Positions 8,008 to 61,705 of a DNA stretch of 64,000 nt are shown here, one piece after another. The stretch spans positions 4,271-68,270 of the forward strand of contig JBEPVA010000002.1 in the NCBI GenBank assembly GCA_041691295.1, written 5' to 3'. This stretch comes from Gemmatimonadota bacterium (GTDB taxonomy: Bacteria > Gemmatimonadota > Gemmatimonadetes > Gemmatimonadales > GWC2-71-9). A program made the translations under genes and the position numbers. The notes under the pieces were generated by a model that worked only from the letters and a program-made list of their open reading frames with translations, did no database searches and was not told the DNA's origin. The stretch's first letter is position 1, and every line of letters starts with the position of its first letter.

Positions 8008-8906
8008 GGAATGCAGACGTCCAGCGCCAGGGGAACCACGGTGACCACCAGCGGAGTGCTGCCGGCCACGTCACCATCGATCTGGACCGGCTCGGGTACG
8101 GCCGCTTCGACCCGGATTTCCCGTCCCCGCGCGTGGGCCACGAAGCCGCCATCGGCATCGAGCGTATGGTGCTCGCGGAGCAGGTCCAGGATGGCGCGCA
8201 CGCCGCCGAAGAAGCCGTTGCCGCTCATCAGGATCAGGTCGAGCAGGCCATCATCGAAGGAAATGTCCCGCTTCAGCTTGACGATCGGCGGGATGATCTC
8301 CCTGCAGTTGGCGATCATCGCAATGGTGGCCGGCACTTCGAGCACCACCCCGTCCACGGTGATCCGGTGCGGCACCCGCTTGATCTTCGGAATCAGCCGG
8401 AACGTGGTGGCCACGTAGGCGCCGAACCCCCAGCGCCGCTTGAATTCCGGCGGAGTTCCTCCCATGACGCGGGCGTCGTACCCCGCCCCGCACGCCACCG
8501 CGAAGTAGTGCACGCCGTCGGGCCGTTCGACCCGGCCCAGGTCGATCCGCCGCTTCCTGCCCGCCAGCAGTACCCGGGCCGCTTTGACCGGATCCGAAGG
8601 GATCCGAAGGTTGCCGGCGAGCAGATTGCCGGTGCCACCCGGAATGGCACAGATCCGGGTATCCGATCCGACCGCGGCGCCGGCCGCCTGCATGATGGTA
8701 CCGTCCCCGCCGAGGACCACGATCGCCTCGACTCGTTCCCGCACCGCGGCCTCGGCCAGCAGGCTGGCGGCGCCCGGACCGGTGGTCCGTTCCAGATCCA
8801 CCGCCCAACCGCCACCAGTGAGGGTCTCGACCACCGCCCGCTCGGCGGACTCCTTCATGCGCGAGGCGGCGGGGTTGGCGATCAGCAGGGCCCGAGGCGC
8901 GCTCAA
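8004..8906 (-). CDS. diacylglycerol kinase family lipid kinase (YegS/DAGK-like)
   Basis: LLIANPAASR... and the VVLGGDGTIMQAA (GGDGT) motif. Overlaps both the TamB stop and the kinase start by 4 nt. Confidence 0.85.
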   Translation of the reverse strand: MSAPRALLIANPAASRMKESAERAVVETLTGGGWAVDLERTTGPGAASLLAEAAVRERVEAIVVLGGDGTIMQAAGAAVGSDTRICAIPGGTGNLLAGNLRIPSDPVKAARVLLAGRKRRIDLGRVERPDGVHYFAVACGAGYDARVMGGTPPEFKRRWGFGAYVATTFRLIPKIKRVPHRITVDGVVLEVPATIAMIANCREIIPPIVKLKRDISFDDGLLDLILMSGNGFFGGVRAILDLLREHHTLDADGGFVAHARGREIRVEAAVPEPVQIDGDVAGSTPLVVTVVPLALDVCIP

Positions 8907-46529: not shown

Positions 46530-48086
46530 CTAGGATCCCATCGCCAGAGCAAACAGCTCCGGCTGGGTATGCCCCCGCTGCGCCAGCGTCAGCGCCTCGC
46601 GCAGCTGGCGATCCTTGACCATGGCGTGGCGCGTTGCGGTTGAATCGCCAAACGCCACCCGCGCCACCCGCCATTCAATCAGCCGGTCGAGATAGCTGGC
46701 CCCAGCGTCATACACCGCCCGATCGACGGTGATCCCCTTGGCGGTCAGCCGCTTCCAGTAGTCCTCACGCCAGGCCGGCTGGTATGTAAAGTTCGGGGTC
46801 AATGAGGGCCGGAGCTGCGTGGCCATGTCGTACAGCACCAGGTACGCCTCCTGGCCGTGCGGCGCCAGGGCCAGCTGCAGCTTTCGCTCCGCATCAGTCA
46901 GGGTGTCGCCGCGGACGACCCGATCTGGAGTAATGCCACCACCGCCGTAGACCGGCCGGCCCGACTCTGAACGAAAGACTGGCCGAATACTGTCCGCCTT
47001 GGTGGAGTCGGCCGGGATTTCTTCGAGGCGCCCGTCTGCGCCCCGCCGCCGCGGACGCTGAATCGAGCGGCCACTCGGCGTGAGCCAGCGTCCGCTGGTC
47101 AGCTTGAGCAACCAGCCGCCCGACAATGGCATTGCGGTCTGGACCAGTCCCTTGCCATAGGAAATCGTCCCCAGCACCAGCGCCCGGTCATGATCTTGCA
47201 AGGCGCCCGCCACAATTTCCGTGGCTGAGGCGGACCCGCCGTCGACCAGTACAATGAGCGGAAGGTTGGGGGCCAGCGGCTGCTTTGGGGCCCGGTAGAT
47301 CTCGGGTGCCGGATCCCGGCTCTTCACTCGATAGATCTCTTCACCAGCGGGCAGGAAGAGGTTGGCCACCTGCACCGCCTGGTCGGTGTAGCCCCCGCCA
47401 TTGCCACGCATATCCAGGATCAGCGCCTTGGCGCCGGCTGCCAGCACCTTGCGCACCGCCGCCTCGGTCTCGTCGCCCGACTTCTCGGTGAACTGCTGCA
47501 GCGGCAGGTAGCCGACCCCGCCGTCGAGGACGATGGCGTACGGTGCTCCCGGAATCCGGACCACCGCACGCTCGAACTTGAGTTCCATCGGCTTGACCAT
47601 ACCAGCCCGATGGAAGGTGACTCTGACCGGAGTGCCGGGCGGTCCCTTCATGGCGGTGGTCACGTCCAGGAACTTCATCCCCGCGGTCGGCTTGCTGTCG
47701 ACGGCCATGATCTCGTCGCCCTCGAGCACCCCGCCCCGCTCACCGGGCGAATTGGGGAAGACTCGCATCACGGTGAAATGGGTCTCATGATCCTCAAGCA
47801 GCAATCCCACGCCGGCGTATCGTCCCGCGATCTGGACATTGAAATCGGCCAGATCCTTGGGGCTCACCAGTTCAGCGTAGGGATCACCGAGGCGATCGAC
47901 CAATCCGTAGGCCGCCTCCTGGTACAGCGAGTCGACGCTGGCGGAATCGACGTAGCGGCCGGCGACGGCGCCGAGCACCTGGCCGAACAGCCTGGCGCCA
48001 TCGGTGCTGGTCTGCTGGCCCGCCAGAACAGTGGCGGTGGCGAATGTCAGGAAAAGCGTCGACAGGGTCAGGCGGCGCGAAGGCAT
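46530..48086 (-). CDS. ctpA: S41 family C-terminal processing (tail-specific) peptidase with PDZ domain
   Basis: Signal peptide from MPSRRLTLSTLFLTFATATVLAGQ. PDZ-like ..VMRVFPNSPGERGGVLEGDEIMAVD.. Catalytic ..LVDGGSASATEIVAGALQDH.. (Ser) and ..GKGLVQT.. (Lys). Confidence 0.85.
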   Translation of the reverse strand: MPSRRLTLSTLFLTFATATVLAGQQTSTDGARLFGQVLGAVAGRYVDSASVDSLYQEAAYGLVDRLGDPYAELVSPKDLADFNVQIAGRYAGVGLLLEDHETHFTVMRVFPNSPGERGGVLEGDEIMAVDSKPTAGMKFLDVTTAMKGPPGTPVRVTFHRAGMVKPMELKFERAVVRIPGAPYAIVLDGGVGYLPLQQFTEKSGDETEAAVRKVLAAGAKALILDMRGNGGGYTDQAVQVANLFLPAGEEIYRVKSRDPAPEIYRAPKQPLAPNLPLIVLVDGGSASATEIVAGALQDHDRALVLGTISYGKGLVQTAMPLSGGWLLKLTSGRWLTPSGRSIQRPRRRGADGRLEEIPADSTKADSIRPVFRSESGRPVYGGGGITPDRVVRGDTLTDAERKLQLALAPHGQEAYLVLYDMATQLRPSLTPNFTYQPAWREDYWKRLTAKGITVDRAVYDAGASYLDRLIEWRVARVAFGDSTATRHAMVKDRQLREALTLAQRGHTQPELFALAMGS

Positions 48087-48095
48087 TGGCTCTGG

Positions 48096-48238
48096 TCCGG
48101 GATGAACGGGATTCGGGGGTCCAGCCTGCATGGCAATCTACGCAGAGCCGAGGCTCGATGTTCCAGCCGGGCAACGTCGGGAATTTCCGCAGTGCGCCTG
48201 GTGTCGCTGGTCACAGCCGGAACGCCGTTCATCCCGGA
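48096..48238. promoter_or_regulatory. 14-bp perfect inverted repeat pair TCCGGGATGAACGG / CCGTTCATCCCGGA separated by 115 nt in the divergent ctpA / hydrolase promoter region
   Basis: 48096-48109 is the exact reverse complement of 48225-48238. Confidence 0.5.
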
Positions 48239-48313
48239 TCGCTGGCCGGGGCGGGCCTTCTTCCCGACAATGGTGCCGGAACGGTGGTAGGGTCATCAAT
48301 CCGGGGAGGTCCC

Positions 48314-49384
48314 ATGTCGCGCCAGCAATCCTTCAGTGTCTTTGCCCTGCTTAGTCTCCTGCTGGCCGCTGGCTGTGCCAGGTTTGCCCGGGACACCCCG
48401 GCCTATCTCGACCGGGTCGAGGCGCCAACACCGCTGGCCGGCCGGATCGACTCGGCCATGACCGCGCTGGAGCGACAGGGCTTTGCCGGCACCGTGCTCG
48501 TCGCCCAGGGCACTCACATGGTCCTGTATCGGGGCTACGGCATTGCCGACGCCACCACTGGCACCCGGGCCTCCGCCCTGACGCGCTATCCGCTCGGCGC
48601 GGTGGCCAATCAGTTCACCGCGGCGGCGGTGCTGCAGCTGCAGTCGGCCGGCCGGCTCCGCGCCGGCGATCGGGTGGGTCAATTTGATCGTGAGGCCAGC
48701 GCCGAGTTGAGCGGTGCGACGCTGCATGAACTGCTCACCCGGAGCCGGGAGCCGCTCGAATACGCCACCACAACCGGACTGGCCGCTCCCGCCGCCTTCC
48801 GGGACAATGCTCCGCTGCTGGCACTGCCGCTGCAGGAGCAGTTCCGCGCTTCGGGAATGAGCTACGCCGAGCTCGAAAAGGTCGTGGCTGCCGCATCGGG
48901 TCAACCGTATGCCGACTATCGCCAGCAGCGGATCCTGGCGCCCAGCCGAATGGACCGGACGCTCGACGCGGCGTGGACCGGCCCCGCCGACCAGGTGGCG
49001 CTCGGCAACAGCTTCGGTCGGGAGACCACAATCAAGGCCTCAGGGTTGGTAGGCCCACTCTCCGATCTCTATCGCTGGCATCTGGCGCTCGAGGGAGAGG
49101 CACCGCTTGACGCCCGGGCCCGCGACGGGCTGATCACCCCGGGCAGCAATGGCTATGCACCGGGCTGGGTGGTCGGTGAGACCGCCGGTGGAGACGTGCT
49201 GCTGCAGCATGTGGGAGACACCGAAGGGTTCCAACTCTGGACAGCGTGGCTCCCCGAGAGCGACACCGTAATCCTTCTGGGCATCAACAGCGATATCGGC
49301 TGGCGCAACCTGGCCAGCGAGATGCTGCTCGGGCTGGTAGCGGGCAACCGCGGAGGGCCACCTCAACGGAGTGCCTCGCGGTAG
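48314..49384 (+). CDS. beta-lactamase-fold serine-hydrolase homologue, probable lipoprotein, catalytic SxxK apparently lost
   Basis: MSRQQSFSVFALLSLLLAAGC (lipobox-like), GGGAGG Shine-Dalgarno. Family-typical ..GYGIAD...YPLGAVANQFTAAAVLQLQSAGRL.. but with A-V-A-N where S-x-x-K is expected. Confidence 0.65.
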   Translation: MSRQQSFSVFALLSLLLAAGCARFARDTPAYLDRVEAPTPLAGRIDSAMTALERQGFAGTVLVAQGTHMVLYRGYGIADATTGTRASALTRYPLGAVANQFTAAAVLQLQSAGRLRAGDRVGQFDREASAELSGATLHELLTRSREPLEYATTTGLAAPAAFRDNAPLLALPLQEQFRASGMSYAELEKVVAAASGQPYADYRQQRILAPSRMDRTLDAAWTGPADQVALGNSFGRETTIKASGLVGPLSDLYRWHLALEGEAPLDARARDGLITPGSNGYAPGWVVGETAGGDVLLQHVGDTEGFQLWTAWLPESDTVILLGINSDIGWRNLASEMLLGLVAGNRGGPPQRSASR

Positions 49385-49414
49385 GTACCGCAAGCCGGGC
49401 AGCACGGCAGGCTT

Positions 49415-49440
49415 CGAAGGGGTGTCAACACGCCCCTTCG
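49415..49440 (+). terminator. hairpin downstream of the hydrolase gene (no U-tract)
   Basis: CGAAGGGGTGT-CAAC-ACGCCCCTTCG, an 11-bp stem including one G-U, 30 nt after the stop. Confidence 0.45.
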
Positions 49441-49479
49441 TCGCATGTGTGAATGATCTTCGGCTCGGGCGTCCTTAGC

Positions 49480-49488
49480 ACGCCGTTC
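49480..49488 (+). promoter_or_regulatory. ACGCCGTTC box (AlgR/LytTR-like core CCGTTC)
   Basis: The exact 9-mer also occurs at 48222-48230 and 49661-49669, all in intergenic DNA on the plus strand. Confidence 0.35.
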
Positions 49489-49550
49489 GGAAAGGGGCGG
49501 CATCGCCTGGTGGGAACCGGTTCCTCTCTTGCGGAACCCCCAGGAGGCTT

Positions 49551-49591
49551 CGGGGAGGCGGCACTTGCCGTCTCCCCGTTGCATTTGTGTG
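49551..49591 (+). terminator. strong rho-independent terminator-like hairpin inside the 370-nt intergenic region
   Basis: CGGGGAGGCGGC-ACTT-GCCGTCTCCCCG (12-bp stem, one G-U) followed by TTGCATTTGTGTG. Confidence 0.6.
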
Positions 49592-49660
49592 CACCCGGGC
49601 GCGCTCGCTCGTCATCGGTCGGACAGCATGCACATTCACGGCCGACTGGTCCCCGAAATG

Positions 49661-49669
49661 ACGCCGTTC
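49661..49669 (+). promoter_or_regulatory. ACGCCGTTC box (AlgR/LytTR-like core CCGTTC), 85 nt upstream of the LytS-type kinase start
   Basis: Exact 9-mer repeat of 49480-49488 and 48222-48230. Reads ACGCCGTTCGCC. Confidence 0.35.
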
Positions 49670-49753
49670 GCCCCTTCGAGACCCGGTGGCGCCCAGCCAC
49701 GAAACGCCGCCGCGCATCGGGGCGTATCGTTCTATCTCAGTCTCGTCGAGCCA

Positions 49754-50926
49754 ATGAACTCATTCAGCCGATGGATCGAAGGGCCCGGACCTTCGAGCGA
49801 GCACTGGCGCCGGGCCGGTATCACCGCGGCAATCATTGCGGGTGGTTGGACCACCTTTGGCGTGGTGTCATTCGGACAGGCGTGGCTGTACTACACCCTG
49901 CCCGGCGCCGGTCGGGAACCGCCCATCCACCTGTTCATGCTGGCCATGGGCAGTGCCTGGATCTGGGCGCTGCTCACCCCGCTGGCACTCTGGTGGTCTG
50001 CACGCGTGGTCAGGAGTCCAGCTCGCTGGGCCCGTATTCTTGGCCTCCACATACTGGCGGGAGTCGCCTTCATCGTGGTGTCGACCGGCCTGGAGCGCAG
50101 CCTTGCCACGCTGCTGCTCGGGACGCCGGGACCATCCTTTGCCCGCAGCCTGCTCTATCGGTTCGACAGCCGGTTCCTGGCGTATCTCATCATCGTGACC
50201 CTGGCCCAGGTCAGCCGCATCCTGACGCTGTCTCGCGACCGCCAGCTGGAATCGGCCCAGCTCGCCACTCAGCTGGCCCGGGCCGAGTTGCAGGTGCTCA
50301 AGATGCAACTGCAGCCGCACTTCCTGTTCAATGCCCTGAATGCTATTTCGGAGCTGGTGCACCAGGATCCCGGTACCGCCGATCGGCTGATCGGGCGACT
50401 GGGTCACCTGCTGAGGCTGTCGCTGGACCAGGCCGCTGGCCACCAGATGGTGCCGCTGCGACAGGAGCTCGAATTTCTGTGGGCTTACCTCGAGATCGAA
50501 CAGACCCGGTTCGGCACTCGGCTGGCCGTGGAAATCGTGGCCGGGCTCGAAGTGCTCGATGCCGCGGTGCCAACTTTGCTGCTACAGCCGCTAGTCGAGA
50601 ACGCCATCCGCCACGGCGCCGCCCAGCGTTCCGAGGGCGGCCGCGTCAGCCTGCGGGCTCGCCGGGACGAGGAGCGGCTGCGGATCGTGGTCGAGGACAA
50701 CGGTCCAGGGTTTCCCGAAGCCGAGTCGAGTTTGCCGGCCGGACTCGGACTGCGCAATACCCGTGAACGGCTGCGCCAGCTGTACGGCGCCGATCATCGC
50801 TTCCGCCTGGCCAACGCCCCAGAAGGCGGGGCGCGCCTGCTGCTTGAGGTACCGTTCCGCGAAATCAGCCAGGCCAATACCCCACTTCACCTCCGGGCGG
50901 TCCCGCGCCCGCCGGTCCGGCGATGA
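49754..50926 (+). CDS. LytS/YehU-type sensor histidine kinase
   Basis: N-terminal multi-TM region, then ..AELQVLKMQLQPHFLFNALNAISELV.. (His_kinase PF06580-type H-box) and HATPase (..NAIRHGA.., ..DNGPGF.., ..GLGLRNTRERL..). Confidence 0.85.
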   Translation: MNSFSRWIEGPGPSSEHWRRAGITAAIIAGGWTTFGVVSFGQAWLYYTLPGAGREPPIHLFMLAMGSAWIWALLTPLALWWSARVVRSPARWARILGLHILAGVAFIVVSTGLERSLATLLLGTPGPSFARSLLYRFDSRFLAYLIIVTLAQVSRILTLSRDRQLESAQLATQLARAELQVLKMQLQPHFLFNALNAISELVHQDPGTADRLIGRLGHLLRLSLDQAAGHQMVPLRQELEFLWAYLEIEQTRFGTRLAVEIVAGLEVLDAAVPTLLLQPLVENAIRHGAAQRSEGGRVSLRARRDEERLRIVVEDNGPGFPEAESSLPAGLGLRNTRERLRQLYGADHRFRLANAPEGGARLLLEVPFREISQANTPLHLRAVPRPPVRR

Positions 50927-51666
50927 ATCCGGTCAGTGTCATCGTCGCCGACGACGAGCCACTGGGGCGCCAGCGCATCGTCCGGCTCCTGGCCCGCGAA
51001 CCCGACGCCCAGATCGTGGCGGTTTGCGCCGACGGTCCCACCGCGCTCGCCGCGGTGCGCCGCTACAACCCGGACCTGCTCTTTCTCGATGTCCAGATGC
51101 CATCGCTGGACGGCTTCAGTGTGATTAAGCAGGCCAGCGCCGGCGGCCGCCCCGCGGTGGTCTTCGTCACGGCCCATGACCAGTATGCCCTGCAGGCCTT
51201 TGACGCCGATGCACTCGATTACCTCCTCAAGCCGTTTGACGAGGAGCGGTTTCACCGAGCCTACCTCCGGGCCCGCGAGCGGCTCAATCGGCCTCCGGAA
51301 AAGGAACCCACCCCGATCACGGAAGGAATGCATCCTGACCGGCTGGCCGTGAAGCGGGAGGGGGCGGTTTATTTCGTGAAGATCGCGGACGTCGACTGGG
51401 TCGAGGCGGCCAGCAACTATGTCCGCCTGCATACCGGGCAGGAAACGCACCTGCTGCGTGAATCGATGACCGGGATCGGAGCCCGGCTCGACCCCCGCCG
51501 CTTCCTGCGAATCCATCGGACCGCGATCGTCAACGTCGACCGGATCCGCGAACTGCAGCCGTGGTTCTCCGGCGAGTACATTGTGATTCTGCAAGACGGT
51601 ACCAAGTTGAAAGTGAGCCGAGGCTACCGGAATGTGGTCACCCAGTGGCTGGGCAAGGCATGCTGA
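50923..51666 (+). CDS. LytTR/AlgR-family response regulator
   Basis: REC (..VIVADDEPLGR.., ..LLFLDVQMPSLDG..) plus a C-terminal LytTR DNA-binding domain (..YFVKIADVDWVEAASNYVRLHTGQETHLLRESM..RIHRTAIVNVDRI..). Confidence 0.9.
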   Translation: MNPVSVIVADDEPLGRQRIVRLLAREPDAQIVAVCADGPTALAAVRRYNPDLLFLDVQMPSLDGFSVIKQASAGGRPAVVFVTAHDQYALQAFDADALDYLLKPFDEERFHRAYLRARERLNRPPEKEPTPITEGMHPDRLAVKREGAVYFVKIADVDWVEAASNYVRLHTGQETHLLRESMTGIGARLDPRRFLRIHRTAIVNVDRIRELQPWFSGEYIVILQDGTKLKVSRGYRNVVTQWLGKAC

Positions 51667-52140: not shown

Positions 52141-52265
52141 GGACAGGCGGACAGGCGGACAGGCGGACAGGCGGACAGGCGGACAGGCGGACCGAAACTA
52201 ATTAACGGTTCGCCATCTCGTCGCTCGTCGCTCGTCGCTCGTCTCTCGTCTCTAGTCTCTCGTCT
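52141..52265. repeat. (GGACAGGC)x5 perfect octamers ... (TCGTCKC/TAGTCTS)x8 heptamers
   Basis: GGACAGGC x5 at 52141-52180. TCGTCGC x3, TCGTCTC x2, TAGTCTC, TCGTCTG, TAGTCTG at 52210-52265. Central AACGGTTCGCCATC. Confidence 0.9.
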
Positions 52266-52288
52266 GTAGTCTGCCTACCTTCTCACCC

Positions 52289-54055
52289 ATGCTCCCGTCC
52301 GACTCCGCTGTCCCGCTGGCCGGCAGCGGTGAGCCCGCCGCCGCTCTGCTGCAAGCCGCCATCACGGTCGGCCTGGCCGTTCTTTGTGCCCAGCTTTATC
52401 GCCGCTATCAGAAGCCCTACCTCCGCTGGTGGGCCGTGGCCTGGTCGCTGTACGCGCTGCGGTTGGCAGCCATCATCACCTTCCTCCGCACCGGTGGCAG
52501 GGGCTGGCTGTACTGGCACCAGGCCATCACCGGCTGGACGGCGCTGGTGCTGCTCTGGACGGCGCTGGTCTTCTCCCGACAGCCCCGCTGGCGATCATGG
52601 TATCTCATCCTCGTACTGTTCCCGCCGGCCTGGGCCTTCGTGGCGATCTACGGTCTCGATCGCTTCATGCTGGTCGCGGTGCCCGCGGTGGTCTTTCTCA
52701 GCATCGCCACCCTCTGGACCGGCTGGGTTTTCTATCGCGATCACCGCGATACCGGTTCCACCGGTTCAGCGATCCTGGCCGGCGCATTCTGTCTGTGGGG
52801 CTTGCACCATCTCGACTATCCGCTGCTCCGGGCCCGCGGGGCGCTCAATCCCTGGAGCTATTACCTCGATATCTGTTTCCTGCTCGCGGTCGCCACCGGT
52901 CTGCTGACCCTGGTGATCGAAGACGCCAGGCGCGGGCTGGCGGCGCTGTCGGCGCTGTCGGATGGATTGGCCGAGGCGGCCGATGGCAATCCGGTCGATG
53001 CGCTGCTGGCGGGTGCGGCTTCGTTGCGCGGGGTCCGCGGCAGCGCCATGTACAGCGGCGAGGAGCGGCGATTCGTGCGCGGCACCGGCGCCTGCGCCAG
53101 CTGGGTGGGGCAGGTTCCGGCCGGCGCCGCCGCCGATGCGGTCGACGAAGCGCTGGCGTCCGGGCGGCCCAAGCTGTCAGCCGGCTGGAGTGCCGCCGAT
53201 GCCCCGGGCGGCCCCTACCCCTGGGCCGCTGTACTGCCGGTACTCCAGGGGCAGGCTCCGGCTGGAGCACTGGTGATCGTGAGCGCGGCCCGCGATCCCT
53301 TCACCGCGGTGGATGAGCGGTTCCTCCGCGCCTTTGGCCGCCAGGCCGGCGCTGCGCTGGAGCGGGCCGATCTGGCCCTCCGTCTCCGCCAGCGCACCGC
53401 CGATCTCGAGCGCCTCTCGGCCCGGATGGTCCGCCAGCACGAGGAGGAACGGCGGCGGCTTTCCCTCGAACTCCACGACGAAACGGCCCAGGTCTTTGCG
53501 GCCGTGAAGATGCAACTTGGTGTGGCCCGCGAGCAGGCTGGACCGGAACTGGCCAGCCGGCTTGACCGCTCCCTCGAACTGGTCGATACCGGCCTGCACA
53601 GCATCCGACGGGTGACCGACAGCCTGCGGCCCGCCCTGCTCGATGACATCGGGCTGGTGCCAGCCCTGCGTTCCCTGGTGGCGGACTTCCGGGAGCAGAG
53701 CGGTCTCAGCATCGTGGTGCAGGTGCCCGACCACGCCCCTATCCTCAATGCCGATGCGGACGTCGCCCTGTTCAGGGCCCTGCAGGAAGGGCTGGCTAAC
53801 GTGGCCCGCCACGCCGCGGCCGAAGAAGTCCGGGTTGAACTCACGACCGATGGTACCGACGTGACCCTGCGCATCCGGGACGATGGCGTGGGTCTCGATC
53901 TCGGCGTCCTCGCCGGCAAGGCGCGGCAGGGACACGCCGGGTTGGTCGGGATGCGGGAACGGGTCGAGACGCTCGGTGGCGCCGTGGATATCGTCAGTGT
54001 GCCGGGCGGCGGGTTGCAACTCTCGATCCGGCTGCCGGAAGTGAGCGCCGCATGA
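52289..54055 (+). CDS. sensor histidine kinase, HisKA_3 (NarX/LiaS-type) with N-terminal multi-TM sensor and GAF-like domain
   Basis: Six or so N-terminal helices, then ..RRRLSLELHDETAQVF.. (HisKA_3 H-box), ..ALQEGLANVARHA.., ..DDGVGL.., ..GLVGMRERVETLGG.. Confidence 0.85.
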   Translation: MLPSDSAVPLAGSGEPAAALLQAAITVGLAVLCAQLYRRYQKPYLRWWAVAWSLYALRLAAIITFLRTGGRGWLYWHQAITGWTALVLLWTALVFSRQPRWRSWYLILVLFPPAWAFVAIYGLDRFMLVAVPAVVFLSIATLWTGWVFYRDHRDTGSTGSAILAGAFCLWGLHHLDYPLLRARGALNPWSYYLDICFLLAVATGLLTLVIEDARRGLAALSALSDGLAEAADGNPVDALLAGAASLRGVRGSAMYSGEERRFVRGTGACASWVGQVPAGAAADAVDEALASGRPKLSAGWSAADAPGGPYPWAAVLPVLQGQAPAGALVIVSAARDPFTAVDERFLRAFGRQAGAALERADLALRLRQRTADLERLSARMVRQHEEERRRLSLELHDETAQVFAAVKMQLGVAREQAGPELASRLDRSLELVDTGLHSIRRVTDSLRPALLDDIGLVPALRSLVADFREQSGLSIVVQVPDHAPILNADADVALFRALQEGLANVARHAAAEEVRVELTTDGTDVTLRIRDDGVGLDLGVLAGKARQGHAGLVGMRERVETLGGAVDIVSVPGGGLQLSIRLPEVSAA

Positions 54056-54705
54056 CCGCAGTCATTCGGGTGCTGGTGGCCGATGATCACAGCGTGGTGC
54101 GCGAGGGATTGCGCCATGTGCTGGCCGGCGCGCCGGGATTCGAAGTCGTGGCAGAAGCAGCCACCGCGGCCGAGGCCATTGCCCTGGCCGAACGACATAC
54201 GCCCGATGTGCTGGTATTGGATATTTCGATGCCCGGCGGGTCGGGGCTGGGCGTGGTCGAGGAGATTCGGCGACGACTGCCCGATGTCCGGATCCTGATG
54301 CTCAGTATTCATGACCAGCGCGAATACGTGGTCGAGAGTGTCCGGGCCGGCGCCCACGGGTACCTGCGCAAGGATTCCACCCCGGCCGAACTGCGGGCCG
54401 CGATCACGGCGGTGCATCGTGAGGGCGCCTACTTCAGTCCCTCCGTGGCCCGACACCTCGGCGCCGCCCTCCGGGGCGATGCCGGCACCGCAATCGAGAA
54501 CGCCGGGCCCACCCTGACCCCCCGCGAGCGCGAGGTCCTGGTCCGGGTCGCCCGCGGCCTGACCAACAAGGAAACCGCCGCCGAACTCGGCATCAGCACC
54601 CGCACTGTCGAAGCCCACCGCGACAGTCTGTCCCGCAAACTTGGCATCAAGACCGTGGCGGGGCTTACCCGTTACGTCATGGAACAGGAGATGGGGCAAT
54701 CGTAG
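54052..54705 (+). CDS. NarL/LuxR-family response regulator
   Basis: REC (..VLVADDHSVVREGL.., ..VLVLDISMPGGSG..) plus a LuxR HTH (..LTPREREVLVRVARGLTNKETAAELGISTRTVEAHR..). ATGA overlap with the kinase. Confidence 0.9.
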   Translation: MTAVIRVLVADDHSVVREGLRHVLAGAPGFEVVAEAATAAEAIALAERHTPDVLVLDISMPGGSGLGVVEEIRRRLPDVRILMLSIHDQREYVVESVRAGAHGYLRKDSTPAELRAAITAVHREGAYFSPSVARHLGAALRGDAGTAIENAGPTLTPREREVLVRVARGLTNKETAAELGISTRTVEAHRDSLSRKLGIKTVAGLTRYVMEQEMGQS

Positions 54706-60565: not shown

Positions 60566-60628
60566 AGCCATCAGCTGTCAGCCTCTAGCCGTTAGCTAAC
60601 GGCCAACGACTAACGGCTAACGACTGCC
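60566..60628. repeat. nine phased heptamers (AGCNNNC / GRCTAAC) with a central 16-nt perfect palindrome
   Basis: AGCCATC AGCTGTC AGCCTCT AGCCGTT AGCTAAC GGCCAAC GACTAAC GGCTAAC GACTGCC. GCCGTTAGCTAACGGC is a perfect palindrome. The array overlaps the serC stop. Confidence 0.85.
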
Positions 60629-61705
60629 TTTCTCGAATTCCCGGATGAAACCCACCAACGCCTCCACCCCCGCACTCGGCATCGCGTTGTAGAGACTCGC
60701 CCGCATCCCGCCAGCATTGCGATGACCCTTGAGGCCGTCCAGCCCGCGCTTGGTGGCTTCGGCGATGAACCGGTTCTCGGTCGCTTCGTCCGGGCCCCGG
60801 AAGCAGACATTCATCAGCGACCGGCTGCCCGCATCGGCCGGCGCGCTGAACATCCTGCTTTCATCCAGCGCGTCATACAGCAGCTTGGCCTTGGCCTCAT
60901 TCCGGTCGGCCATAGCGGCCAGTCCACCAGTTTCCTTGATCCACGTGAGCACCAGTCCGATGACATAGATCGCGAAGGTCGGCGGGGTGTTGTACATCGA
61001 GCGGTCGGCCGCAAAGGTCCGGTACTGCAGCATCGTCGGCAACGTCTTGGGTGCCCGCTCGACCAGGTCCTTCCGGATAATGACCAGCACCACTCCCGCG
61101 GGCCCGAGATTCTTCTGGGAGCCGGCGTAGATCAGGCCGTACTTCCGGATAGCCAGGGGGCGGCTGTAGATGTCGCTCGAGGCGTCGCAGATCAGCGGCA
61201 CGCCCGACGGCGGGGCCGGTTCATTCCGCCACTGGGTGCCGTAGATCGTGTTGTTGCTGGTGTAATGGACATAGGCCGGATCGGCCGAGTAGCGAATCTC
61301 CGAGGCGGCCGGAATCCGGGTGAACTTGGAGCCCTTGCCGGTGGCCGCCTCGTGGGTGGCGCCGAGCAGCTGGGCTTCCTTGATCGCCTTTTCGGACCAG
61401 ACGCCAGTGTTGATGTAGTCGGCGGTCCGGCCGGCCGGCAGGATATTCATCGGCACCATCGAGAACTGCAGCGAGGCGCCTCCCTGCACGAACAGCACCT
61501 CGTAGTTATCGGGAATGCCGGACAATTCTCGGCAGCTGGCGATGGTCTCGTCCAGGATCCGGTCGAACACCTTGCCGCGATGGCTGTGCTCGAGGATGCC
61601 AATGCCGCTGCCGGCGATGTTCCAGATATCCTGCCGGGCCTGCGTGAGCACCGGCTCCGGAAGGACGGCGGGGCCGGCGCAGAAATTGAAAATGCGATCT
61701 GCCAT
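60617..61705 (-). CDS. serC: phosphoserine aminotransferase
   Basis: MADRIFNFCAGPAVLPEPVL.., ..FVQGGASLQF.., ..YAGSQKNLGPAG.. (PLP Lys context). Confidence 0.9.
   Translation of the reverse strand: MADRIFNFCAGPAVLPEPVLTQARQDIWNIAGSGIGILEHSHRGKVFDRILDETIASCRELSGIPDNYEVLFVQGGASLQFSMVPMNILPAGRTADYINTGVWSEKAIKEAQLLGATHEAATGKGSKFTRIPAASEIRYSADPAYVHYTSNNTIYGTQWRNEPAPPSGVPLICDASSDIYSRPLAIRKYGLIYAGSQKNLGPAGVVLVIIRKDLVERAPKTLPTMLQYRTFAADRSMYNTPPTFAIYVIGLVLTWIKETGGLAAMADRNEAKAKLLYDALDESRMFSAPADAGSRSLMNVCFRGPDEATENRFIAEATKRGLDGLKGHRNAGGMRASLYNAMPSAGVEALVGFIREFEKGSR

What the first reader, a model, noticed from the sequence alone, without database searches (positions are those of the whole stretch)
48222..49669. 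Three exact ACGCCGTTC boxes (plus an inverted CCGTTC copy) flank the hydrolase gene upstream of the LytS/LytTR operon, resembling the AlgR core CCGTTCGTC
- The 9-mer ACGCCGTTC occurs on the plus strand at 48222-48230, 49480-49488 and 49661-49669. All three are in intergenic DNA.
- The first is part of the 14-bp inverted repeat whose partner (48096-48109) adds a fourth, inverted CCGTTC.
- The extended reads are CCGTTCATC, CCGTTCGGA and CCGTTCGCC.
- From memory, the binding core reported for Pseudomonas aeruginosa AlgR, a LytTR-family regulator, is CCGTTCGTC.
- A LytTR response regulator (50923-51666) and its LytS-type kinase lie immediately downstream.
- Autoregulation of that operon, and control of the inactive beta-lactamase-fold lipoprotein and ctpA, is therefore a testable hypothesis.
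Basis: partly seen in the sequence, partly recalled or inferred. Interest (0 to 1): 0.6.

Follow-up and report, generated by a model that had tools for sequence, protein, structure and literature searches.

The report
LytTR operator repeats, not three boxes
Two of the three identical 9-letter boxes overlap a conserved pair of repeats spaced 21 bp apart, which is very probably where the neighbouring LytTR regulator binds; the third box and the exact 9-letter identity look incidental, so this is a solid but conventional regulator site.

Summary
The three ACGCCGTTC copies are real and intergenic. As a triple they are not evidence of function:
- About one such all-intergenic 9-mer triple occurs per 64 kb in this Gemmatimonadota genome.
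- The 9-mer, CCGTTC and the AlgR core CCGTTCGTC show no intergenic enrichment genome-wide.
- The exact 9-mer is not conserved even in the sister species.

Comparative analysis found a different, 3'-shifted motif. It is a direct repeat of nTTCRYCCC (extended form CnnTTCGTCCC) with an exact 21-bp period, the canonical 9-12-9 layout of LytTR operators.
- In 10 orthologous lineages it peaks only at 21 bp.
- In 151 held-out LytS-homologue loci from several phyla it again peaks only at 21 bp (18 hits against 0-4 at other spacings, p about 7e-15).

Boxes 1 and 3 are the 5' part of the promoter-proximal half-sites of two such repeats, at 48206-48235 and 49645-49674. These end 78 and 79 nt before the start codons of the hydrolase-fold gene and lytS.

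Box 2 has no partner and no RYCCC tail. It lies in a conserved hairpin and terminator module.

lytS also has a conserved ECF-type promoter, GAAAC-N17-CGTA. The AlgR resemblance holds at motif level.

The parts
48206..48235 (+). DR-1, the candidate LytTR operator upstream of the hydrolase-fold gene. Distal half is GCTGGTCAC (48206-48214), the spacer is 12 nt, and the proximal half is GTTCATCCC (48227-48235). Box 1 (48222-48230) covers the last 5 nt of the spacer and the first 4 nt of the proximal half.
   Evidence: - Coordinates were checked.
- The proximal half matches TTCRYCCC exactly. The distal half matches 5 of 8 positions.
- DR-1 and DR-2 share 21 of 30 positions, counted by eye from the sequence, including CTGGTC and ACGCCGTTC.
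- The repeat ends 78 nt before the ATG at 48314.
- G002 keeps the element as GTCCGTCCC.
- G003 has TTCGTCCC and TTCGTCAC 42 bp apart in the homologous spacer.
- G017, L028 and G014 carry full 21-bp repeats in the spacer upstream of the orthologous gene.
48096..48109 (-). Inverted copy CCGTTCATCCCGGA, holding the half-site GTTCATCCC at 48099-48107 on the minus strand. It lies in the inferred 5' UTR of ctpA and has no 21-bp partner.
   Evidence: It is conserved in G002 but not in G001 or G003. Its function is uncertain.
48139..48165 (-). ECF-type promoter of ctpA: TGGAAC-N17-CGTA(GATT).
   Evidence: It is invariant in all four members of the genus. The words GCGTAGAT and CGTAGATT rank among the top 8-mers shared by lineages. 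Assignment to a sigma factor is inferred.
48314..49384 (+). Beta-lactamase-fold (PF00144) lipoprotein with the SxxK motif replaced by AVAN. It is a pseudo-enzyme and the likely target gene of DR-1.
   Evidence: Synteny with lytS/lytT is kept in G001, G002, G003, G014, G017, L028, L030, L031 and L107.
49412..49443 (+). Hairpin 1, terminator-like, just after the hydrolase-fold gene.
   Evidence: The RNA model gives a weak second match at the homologous place in G001.
49480..49488 (+). Box 2. It forms the 5' arm of a small hairpin (49482-49501) inside a conserved non-coding module. It is not an operator half-site.
   Evidence: - The downstream read is TTCGGAAA, with 4 mismatches to TTCRYCCC, and there is no partner at 21 bp.
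- It is kept in G002 and in close metagenomic variants but not in G001.
- The fold is shown.
49519..49591 (+). Conserved stem-loop GGUUCC-UCUCUUGC-GGAACC (49519-49538), followed by a terminator hairpin (49551-49578) and a U-rich tail. It could be a 3'-UTR or leader element, or a small RNA.
   Evidence: - A 14-nt word is identical in G000, G002, G003 and L107, with one change in G001. The stem and the terminator show compensatory changes.
- CTCTCTTG is the top-ranked shared 8-mer.
- There is one copy per genome, restricted to this genus.
- A soil metatranscriptome contig covers 49436-49591 and runs on beyond it.
- Rfam finds nothing here.
49645..49674 (+). DR-2, the candidate LytTR operator upstream of lytS/lytT. 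Distal half is ACTGGTCCC (49645-49653), the spacer is 12 nt, and the proximal half is GTTCGCCCC (49666-49674). Box 3 (49661-49669) covers the spacer end and the first 4 nt of the proximal half.
   Evidence: - The homologous position carries 9-12-9 repeats in three relatives: G001 (GTTCATCCC/TTTCGTCCC), G003 (ATTGGTCCC/ATTCGTCCC) and L107 (TTTCGTCCC/GTTTGTCCC).
- The repeat ends 79 nt before the lytS ATG and 26 nt before the -35 element.
49700..49726 (+). ECF-type promoter of lytS/lytT: CGAAAC-N17-CGTA.
   Evidence: It is present at the same place in every orthologue found, including other genera, as TGAAAC-N17/18-CGTAG. Genome-wide, 33 of 45 GAAAC-N16-18-CGTA matches are intergenic (p = 1.5e-20), and all 7 TGAAAC-N17-CGTA matches are intergenic.
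49754..51666 (+). lytS-type histidine kinase (49754-50926) and LytTR response regulator (50923-51666), with overlapping stop and start codons.
   Evidence: The regulator is closest to the BtsR and LytR models in NCBIfam but scores below their cut-offs.

Best explanation
What it is:
- Boxes 1 and 3 are the 5' edges of the promoter-proximal half-sites of two LytTR-type operators.
- Each operator is a pair of 9-bp direct repeats (consensus nTTCRYCCC, extended CnnTTCGTCCC) separated by 12 bp, giving a 21-bp period.
- DR-1 (48206-48235) lies upstream of the inactive beta-lactamase-fold lipoprotein gene. DR-2 (49645-49674) lies upstream of lytS/lytT.

How it probably works (inferred):
- The phosphorylated LytTR response regulator encoded at 50923-51666 binds as a dimer to each pair.
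- It thereby controls its own operon and the adjacent lipoprotein gene.
- In G000 the centre of the DR-2 proximal half-site lies about 63 bp upstream of the inferred start site of a conserved ECF-type promoter (GAAAC-N17-CGTA). This resembles the position of AgrA sites and suggests activation. The sign of regulation is not shown.

What is incidental:
- The identity of the full 9-mer ACGCCGTTC is incidental, because its ACG part is not conserved.
- Box 2 is not an operator. It is one arm of a hairpin in a conserved non-coding module between the two genes.
For: - **Spacing scan in orthologues.** In the spacers of 10 orthologous lineages (6.25 kb), TTCRYCCC pairs with at most 1 mismatch occur 6 times at 21 bp and never at 15-20 or 22-24 bp. 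With at most 2 mismatches the counts are 14 at 21 bp against 0-2 at other spacings. The remaining 498 kb of intergenic DNA in G000 has only 1 hit at the stricter cut-off.
- **Held-out test.** Among 151 LytS-homologue loci not used to define the motif (788 kb, several phyla), there are 18 hits at 21 bp against 0-4 at each other spacing from 12 to 35 bp (p = 6.7e-15). With at most 2 mismatches the counts are 53 against 5-22 (p = 3e-18). Some loci carry perfect 12-nt repeats (L036) or three in-phase repeats (L056).
- **Unbiased ranking.** TTCGTCCC ranks in the top 10 of 4533 8-mers shared across lineages.
- **Consensus.** CnnTTCGTCCC-N10-CnnTTCRTCCCA contains the AlgR core CCGTTCGTC (PMC4064291).
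- **Published LytTR sites.** The 9-12-9 layout matches known LytTR sites (PMC4847170; PMC6193735; PMC11347149).
- **Geometry in G000.** DR-1 and DR-2 end 78 and 79 nt before their start codons. They share the variant distal half CTGGTC, which G003 also has.
- **Paralogue.** The LytS/LytTR pair on contig C169 has a perfect CGTTCGTCC-N11-CGTTCGTCC directly after its regulator gene.
- **Small regulon.** Few sites exist in G000 outside this locus, as expected for a dedicated two-component system.
Against: - The distal half-sites in G000 are degenerate, matching 6 of 8 positions in DR-2 and 5 of 8 in DR-1. DR-1 would not pass the scan threshold on its own.
- The distance from the repeat to the ECF-type -35 element is not conserved: 26 nt in G000, about 62 in G001 and about 46 in G009.
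- In G003 and L107 the repeat ends only 16 nt before the ATG of an inserted DUF4397 lipoprotein gene. That leaves no room for a downstream promoter and fits repression, or a different arrangement, better than class-I activation.
- G000 encodes six LytTR regulators, so the assignment to this one rests on adjacency alone.
- No binding or expression data exist.
- The motif was first noticed by eye in these same sequences. Only the held-out test is free of that bias.
Confidence: 0.65

Rival explanations
1. Pure coincidence in G000. The three 9-mers and the degenerate repeats here have no function. The conserved TTCRYCCC operator exists in relatives but has decayed in this genome.
For: - Triples of this kind occur about once per window.
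- The 9-mer shows no intergenic enrichment.
- Box 1 already differs at 3 positions in the sister species.
- The distal halves in G000 match only 5-6 of 8 positions.
Against: - The proximal halves match the consensus exactly, and both end 78-79 nt before their start codons.
- The variant distal half CTGGTC recurs in DR-1, in DR-2 and in G002. G003 has the close variant TTGGTC.
- The substitutions in G002 keep the motif, as TCCGTCCC.
- A weak distal site paired with a strong proximal site is usual for such operators (general knowledge; not checked in a paper here).
Confidence: 0.18
2. ACGCCGTTC (core CCGTTC) is the recognition box, and all three copies plus the inverted copy are separate AlgR-style single sites. 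Together they control ctpA, the hydrolase-fold gene and lytS/lytT.
For: - AlgR binds single 9-bp sites scattered over hundreds of bp (PMC4064291).
- Given boxes 1 and 3, a third exact copy within about 600 bp of spacer is expected only about 0.008 times at the genome-wide frequency of the 9-mer (my own arithmetic from the count).
- Box 2 is unchanged in close metagenomic variants.
Against: - The positions ACG and the tail of box 2 are not conserved.
- CCGTTC, CCGTTCRNN and CCGTTCGTC are not enriched in intergenic DNA.
- Box 2 lacks RYCCC and is absent from G001. It lies in a structured module that explains its conservation in close relatives.
- The conserved signal across lineages is the paired, 21-bp-spaced TTCRYCCC.
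Confidence: 0.08
3. The 21-bp-spaced pair is not a regulator site. It is the -35 and -10 pair of a promoter read by an alternative (ECF-type) sigma factor, with CGTC as the -10 element.
For: - The spacing of about 21 bp start to start is compatible with ECF promoters (inferred).
- In G003 and L107 the pair ends 16 nt before a start codon, as a promoter with a short leader would.
- The genome encodes about 30 proteins with Sigma70_r4_2.
Against: - The two elements have the same sequence. Some held-out loci carry perfect 12-nt repeats or three in-phase copies, which a -35/-10 pair would not.
- There is no AAC motif in the upstream element.
- The element travels with LytS/LytTR pairs across phyla.
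- It is not found in front of sigma-factor genes in G000.
- A separate, well-supported ECF-type promoter already lies downstream of it.
Confidence: 0.05

Closest known systems
AgrA operators at the Staphylococcus aureus agr P2/P3 promoters, and the 9-12-9 operators of LytTR regulatory systems (HdrR, BrsR)
   Same: - Two 9-bp direct repeats separated by 12 bp, lying upstream of the promoter of the regulator's own operon and of a neighbouring target gene.
- The proximal repeat is centred near -60 (PMC4227749; PMC6193735).
   Different: - The half-site sequence differs: TTCRYCCC here against ACAGTTAAG-like or ACCNCTTA-like sequences there.
- The downstream promoter is an ECF-type GAAAC-N17-CGTA promoter, not a sigma-70 promoter.
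- The gap to the -35 element is 26 nt, against 4-11 nt in LytTR regulatory systems.
- The host is an uncultured Gemmatimonadota bacterium, and no binding data exist.
AlgR (AlgZ/FimS-AlgR) of Pseudomonas aeruginosa, core site CCGTTCGTC
   Same: - The consensus half-site found here, CnnTTCGTCCC, contains the AlgR 9-mer. Several relatives carry CCGTTCGTC exactly: G009, the hydrolase-upstream spacer of G003 and the C169 paralogue.
- Both are LytTR response regulators paired with a PF06580-type kinase.
   Different: - AlgR sites are described as single 9-mers at variable and often distant positions (PMC4064291). Here the unit is a strictly 21-bp-spaced pair.
- In G000 the boxes read CCGTTCATC, CCGTTCGCC and CCGTTCGGA, none of them the exact AlgR core.
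- Orthology to AlgR was not tested. NCBIfam places the regulator nearest BtsR and LytR, below their cut-offs.
BtsS/BtsR and YpdA/YpdB of Escherichia coli (LytS/LytTR nutrient sensors)
   Same: These are the nearest named protein family models. Their binding sites are direct repeats separated by 11-13 nt, in front of a small local regulon (PMC4847170).
   Different: - The repeat sequence differs (GGCATTTCAT for YpdB).
- The membrane sensor domain of the kinase here has no Pfam match.
- The conserved neighbour here is an inactive beta-lactamase-fold lipoprotein, not a transporter.

Membership tests
LytS/LytTR two-component system (proteins) | Response regulator with a receiver domain plus a LytTR DNA-binding domain (PF04397) | tested here: met
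   PF00072 scores E = 6.6e-23 and PF04397 scores E = 1.1e-25, both above their cut-offs.
LytS/LytTR two-component system (proteins) | Kinase with the LytS/YehU-type His_kinase domain (PF06580) plus HATPase_c, encoded next to the regulator | tested here: met
   PF06580 scores E = 9e-25 and PF02518 scores E = 2e-11. The stop codon of the kinase gene overlaps the start codon of the regulator gene. No 5TM-LytS sensor domain was detected.
LytTR operator (DNA site) | Two direct repeats of 9-11 nt | tested here: met
   The nTTCRYCCC pairs are seen across lineages. In G000 the proximal halves are exact and the distal halves match 5-6 of 8 positions.
LytTR operator (DNA site) | Spacer of 11-13 nt, giving a period of about 21 bp | tested here: met
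   The spacing scans show a single sharp peak at 21 bp in the orthologues and in the held-out loci. One paralogue has a 20-bp period.
LytTR operator (DNA site) | Location upstream of a promoter next to the regulator's own genes | tested here: met
   DR-2 ends 26 nt upstream of a conserved ECF-type -35 element before lytS. DR-1 ends 78 nt before the ATG of the neighbouring gene. The geometry varies among relatives.
LytTR operator (DNA site) | Specific binding by the cognate LytTR protein | not testable with these tools
   This needs EMSA, footprinting, DAP-seq or ChIP.
AlgR box (CCGTTCGTC) | Match to the 9-bp core | tested here: inconclusive
   The G000 boxes match 8, 7 and 8 of 9 positions. 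The family consensus CnnTTCGTCCC contains the core. CCGTTCGTC itself is not enriched in intergenic DNA of G000, with 10 of 73 copies intergenic.
AlgR box (CCGTTCGTC) | The regulator is an AlgR orthologue | not tested
   Only family-model scans were run. The best models are BtsR and LytR, both below their cut-offs.
ECF sigma-dependent promoter | A -35 element containing AAC and a -10 element CGT(A/C), 16-18 nt apart, enriched upstream of genes | tested here: met
   Of 45 GAAAC-N16-18-CGTA matches, 33 are intergenic (p = 1.5e-20), mostly 10-130 nt before gene starts. The promoter is conserved before lytS in all orthologues. Which sigma factor reads it is unknown.

The most novel reading that the evidence does not exclude
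Four elements may form one conserved envelope-sensing module: the catalytically dead beta-lactamase/PBP-fold lipoprotein, the LytS-type kinase that lacks a recognisable sensor domain, the LytTR regulator and the TTCGTCCC 21-bp operator. In this reading the pseudo-enzyme acts as the periplasmic ligand receptor, for example for cell-wall fragments or beta-lactam-like compounds. An ECF sigma factor sets basal expression, and the regulator feeds back through the operator. The same AlgR-like operator recurs beside related kinase and regulator pairs in Gemmatimonadota, Acidobacteriota and Ignavibacteria/Bacteroidota. It could therefore be used to read out the regulons of a large, wholly uncharacterised family of two-component systems directly from genomes.
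Probability: 0.2. Interest if true: 0.6.

Novelty: new member of a known kind. Interest (0 to 1): 0.4.

Why it matters
- It gives a concrete, testable operator (CnnTTCGTCCC-N10-CnnTTCRTCCC) and a two-promoter local regulon for a LytS/LytTR system in uncultured soil Gemmatimonadota.
- The same motif recurs beside related systems in several phyla, so regulons of an unstudied family can be predicted from sequence.
- It shows that the AlgR-type core is shared well beyond Pseudomonas.
- It is a caution about method. The eye-catching exact 9-mer triple was not the signal. The real signal was a shifted, degenerate, strictly phased repeat.

Tried and rejected
- **Rfam scan** of 47500-50500 at E up to 1 found nothing.
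- **Sigma-70 promoter scan** of the region found nothing.
- **Small protein genes.** I looked for a small gene in the 370-bp spacer, including a 73-aa minus-strand ORF at 49363-49584. I rejected it because the region is absent from G003 and L107 and the indels are not multiples of three.
- **C-terminal coding hypothesis.** I first read the conserved word TTCCTCTCTTGCGGAA as C-terminal coding sequence of the hydrolase-fold gene in G003 and L107. Re-framing from the L107 sequence placed the stop codon before it, so this was rejected.
- **Internal duplication.** I tested whether box 2 is a relic of a duplication of the box-3 region. The local alignment score is 20, which 46 of 500 shuffles reach, so this is not supported.
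- **Repeat family.** I tested whether the stem-loop and terminator module is a dispersed RNA family. The covariance model finds one copy per genome in this genus only. The exact-pattern scan of 185,000 species gave only genus members plus two chance coding hits.
- **TTCGYCCC as a general promoter element.** The intergenic copies share no common extended context.
- **Nearby ECF sigma gene.** None is present in the neighbouring ORFs.
- **Metagenome scan** for more orthologues added only L107 and three near-duplicates of L028.
Full report
**1. The observation**

ACGCCGTTC occurs three times in the window, all on the + strand, at 48222, 49480 and 49661.

The genes are also as described:
- an S41 peptidase, ctpA, at 46530-48086 on the minus strand
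- a beta-lactamase-fold protein at 48314-49384
- a PF06580 histidine kinase at 49754-50926
- a receiver plus LytTR regulator at 50923-51666

The beta-lactamase-fold protein has a lipobox (LAAGC). Its SxxK motif reads A-V-A-N, so it is catalytically dead. The assembly is a 3.93-Mb Gemmatimonadota MAG with 65.6% G+C.

**2. Is the triple more than chance?**

No, not on its own.
- Shuffles of the window reach three copies in 3 of 100 trials.
- About 50 different 9-mers per strand in this window have three or more copies within 1.5 kb.
- With a home-made gene caller (3500 genes, 87% coding), 66 loci in the genome carry an all-intergenic 9-mer triple. Resampled intergenic DNA gives 11-20. That is roughly one per 64-kb window.
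- The 9-mer has 54 copies genome-wide, of which 6 are intergenic: 11% against 12.7% expected.
- CCGTTC (419 of 3365 intergenic), CCGTTCRNN (229 of 1894) and the AlgR core CCGTTCGTC (10 of 73) are likewise not enriched.

**3. Conservation of the boxes**

Syntenic loci were fetched from three congeners, G002, G001 and G003. Their regulators are 98%, 84% and 72% identical to the one here. Further loci came from other genera.
- Box 1 is CGCCGTCCG in G002 and is unrecognisable in G001.
- Box 2 is kept only in G002.
- Box 3 is ATGCCGTTC in G002, GTGCGTTTC in G001 and GTGCCATTC in G003.

The exact boxes are therefore not conserved.

**4. What is conserved: an ECF-type promoter**

A promoter of the form [TC]GAAAC-N17/18-CGTA(G) lies 25-40 nt before lytS in every orthologue, including those from other genera. 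In the window it is at 49700-49726.

ctpA has TGGAAC-N17-CGTAGATT at 48139-48165 on the minus strand, invariant within the genus.

Genome-wide, 33 of 45 GAAAC-N16-18-CGTA matches are intergenic (p = 1.5e-20). All 7 TGAAAC-N17-CGTA matches are intergenic. The genome encodes about 30 proteins with Sigma70_r4_2. Which sigma factor reads this promoter is an inference.

**5. What is conserved: a phased direct repeat**

The word TTC[GA][TC]CCC recurs in the spacers as pairs exactly 21 bp apart:
- G001: GTTCATCCC-N12-TTTCGTCCC
- G003: ATTGGTCCC-N12-ATTCGTCCC
- L107: TTTCGTCCC-N12-GTTTGTCCC
- G017 and L028: one pair on each strand of the spacer between a TonB-dependent receptor gene and the hydrolase-fold gene (the neighbour was identified in G017)
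- G014: GTTCGCCCC-N12-GTCCGTCCC

A spacing scan from 15 to 33 bp over 6.25 kb of spacers from 10 lineages gave these counts:

| Mismatches allowed | Hits at 21 bp | Hits at other spacings |
|---|---|---|
| at most 1 | 6 | 0 at 15-20 and 22-24; 0-2 at 25-33 |
| at most 2 | 14 | 0-2 at each |

All other intergenic DNA of G000 has a single hit at the stricter cut-off.

An unbiased ranking of 8-mers shared by lineages puts TTCGTCCC in the top 10 of 4533. The promoter words and CTCTCTTG also rank there.

**6. Held-out test**

The motif had been noticed by eye, so I scanned 151 LytS-homologue loci that had not been examined. They total 788 kb and come from Gemmatimonadota, Acidobacteriota, Ignavibacteria/Bacteroidota and other groups.

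| Mismatches allowed | Hits at 21 bp | Hits at each other spacing (12-35 bp) | Binomial p |
|---|---|---|---|
| at most 1 | 18 | 0-4 | 6.7e-15 |
| at most 2 | 53 | 5-22 | 3e-18 |

Some sites are perfect 12-nt repeats, such as CCGCTTCGTCCCAA twice in L036. Others are three in-phase copies, as in L056. Many lie 44-93 nt before the kinase gene itself.

The consensus is CnnTTCGTCCC-N10-CnnTTCRTCCCA.

**7. Placing the boxes**

In G000 there are two copies of the element (coordinates verified):
- DR-2 is ACTGGTCCC-N12-GTTCGCCCC at 49645-49674.
- DR-1 is GCTGGTCAC-N12-GTTCATCCC at 48206-48235.

Boxes 3 and 1 each cover the last five spacer bases and the first four bases of the proximal half-site. The two elements share 21 of 30 positions, counted by eye, including the variant distal half CTGGTC. 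G003 has the close variant TTGGTC. They end 79 and 78 nt before the start codons of lytS and the hydrolase-fold gene. The substitutions in G002 box 1 keep the motif, as TCCGTCCC.

Box 2 reads TTCGGAAA after the shared part. That is 4 mismatches, and it has no partner at 21 bp.

**8. Comparison with known systems**

LytTR sites are two repeats of 9-11 nt separated by 10-13 nt (PMC4847170; PMC6193735; PMC11347149). The proximal AgrA repeat is centred near -60 (PMC4227749).

The proximal half of DR-2 is centred at 49670. That is about 63 bp upstream of a start site inferred 6-8 nt after the CGTA.

The AlgR core is CCGTTCGTC (PMC4064291). It equals the first nine positions of the consensus half-site.

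A paralogous pair on contig C169 has a perfect CGTTCGTCC-N11-CGTTCGTCC right after its regulator gene.

NCBIfam places the regulator nearest BtsR and LytR, below their cut-offs.

The held literature library has no paper that links TTCGTCCC to a LytTR regulator. The single paper holding both terms has the word only inside a primer.

**9. Caveats on mechanism**

- The gap from the repeat to the ECF-type -35 element varies: 26 nt in G000, about 62 in G001 and about 46 in G009.
- In G003 and L107 an extra DUF4397 lipoprotein gene lies between the repeat and lytS, and its ATG is only 16 nt after the repeat.
- Activation of the ECF-type promoter is therefore only one possibility. The repeat may serve its own promoter, or act negatively in some lineages.
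- G000 has six LytS/LytTR pairs. Assignment to this regulator rests on conserved adjacency.

**10. What box 2 sits in**

Between the two genes lies a module conserved within the genus:
- a stem-loop GGUUCC-UCUCUUGC-GGAACC at 49519-49538, which reads CUUCC...GGAAG in G003 and L107, a compensatory change
- a terminator hairpin at 49551-49578, with several compensatory pairs
- a U-rich tail

In G003 and L107 the module starts a few bases after the stop codon of the hydrolase-fold gene.

G000, G002 and G001 also have a second, diverged hairpin at 49412-49443, plus an extra stretch of about 75 nt. In that stretch box 2 forms the 5' arm of a small hairpin at 49482-49501.

Further observations on the module:
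- The RNA model finds one copy per genome, in this genus only.
- Related metagenomic contigs keep 49469-49591 at 91-93% identity while their flanks diverge.
- One low-depth soil metatranscriptome contig starts at 49436 and runs through the hairpin towards lytS.
- The CU-rich loop is complementary to a Shine-Dalgarno sequence.

Whether this is a 3' UTR element, a leader or a small RNA remains open.

**11. Earlier notes of this scan**

The abundant intergenic heptamer arrays of this genome have already been reported by others in the scan. I counted 609 period-7 arrays. One array unit is GCCGTTC, but I found no link to the boxes.

Other follow-ups describe 21-bp LytTR operators in other genomes. 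One Gemmatimonadota case has a CCGTTCGC... core. These agree with my reading but are not independent evidence.

**12. Verdict**

- The triple is not significant on its own.
- This is a new member of a known kind and of moderate interest.

Noticed in passing
window 49519-49591: A non-coding module restricted to this genus. It consists of a stem-loop with the invariant loop UCUCUUGC (complementary to a Shine-Dalgarno sequence) and a terminator hairpin with compensatory changes. There is one copy per genome and no Rfam match. A soil metatranscriptome contig covers it.
   Followed up: partly
window 49700-49726 (+) and 48139-48165 (-): ECF-type promoters of the form GAAAC/GGAAC-N17-CGTA lie before lytS and ctpA. 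This promoter class has about 33 intergenic members in the genome (p = 1.5e-20) and is conserved before lytS across genera.
   Followed up: partly
window 48314-49384: The beta-lactamase-fold lipoprotein has AVAN in place of SxxK. The same holds in G003 and L107 (AIAN). This conserved pseudo-enzyme always lies next to the kinase, so it may be a ligand-binding partner.
   Followed up: partly
window 52141-52290; also about 60590-60630 and 22520: Intergenic tandem arrays of 7-8-nt units, for example (GGACAGGC)n and (CTCGTCG)n flanking the spacer between the DUF4440 gene and the GAF kinase gene. Genome-wide there are 609 intergenic period-7 arrays, including (GCCGTTC)n, and some lie at contig ends. 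Earlier findings of this scan already cover this.
   Followed up: partly
genome contig C169:6449-6477 (-) and 8393-8421 (-): A paralogous LytS/LytTR pair has a perfect CGTTCGTCC-N11-CGTTCGTCC (20-bp period) just after its regulator gene and a weaker pair before its kinase gene. A long (ACCCGGA/ACCCGAA)n heptamer array lies further upstream.
   Followed up: partly
L023 (G003) and L107:994-1650: Two congeners carry an extra DUF4397 lipoprotein gene between the operator and lytS. Its start codon is 16 nt after the repeat.
   Followed up: partly
genome contig C144:512 (-): A perfect GTGTTCATCCGTG repeat with a 20-bp period lies 24 nt before a gene at a contig end. It may be another LytTR-type site.
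   Followed up: no
window 52289-54705: A second two-component pair, a GAF-HisKA_3 kinase and a LuxR-type regulator, follows lytT. It is syntenic with lytT in G002, G001, G017, G014, L028 and L030.
   Followed up: no
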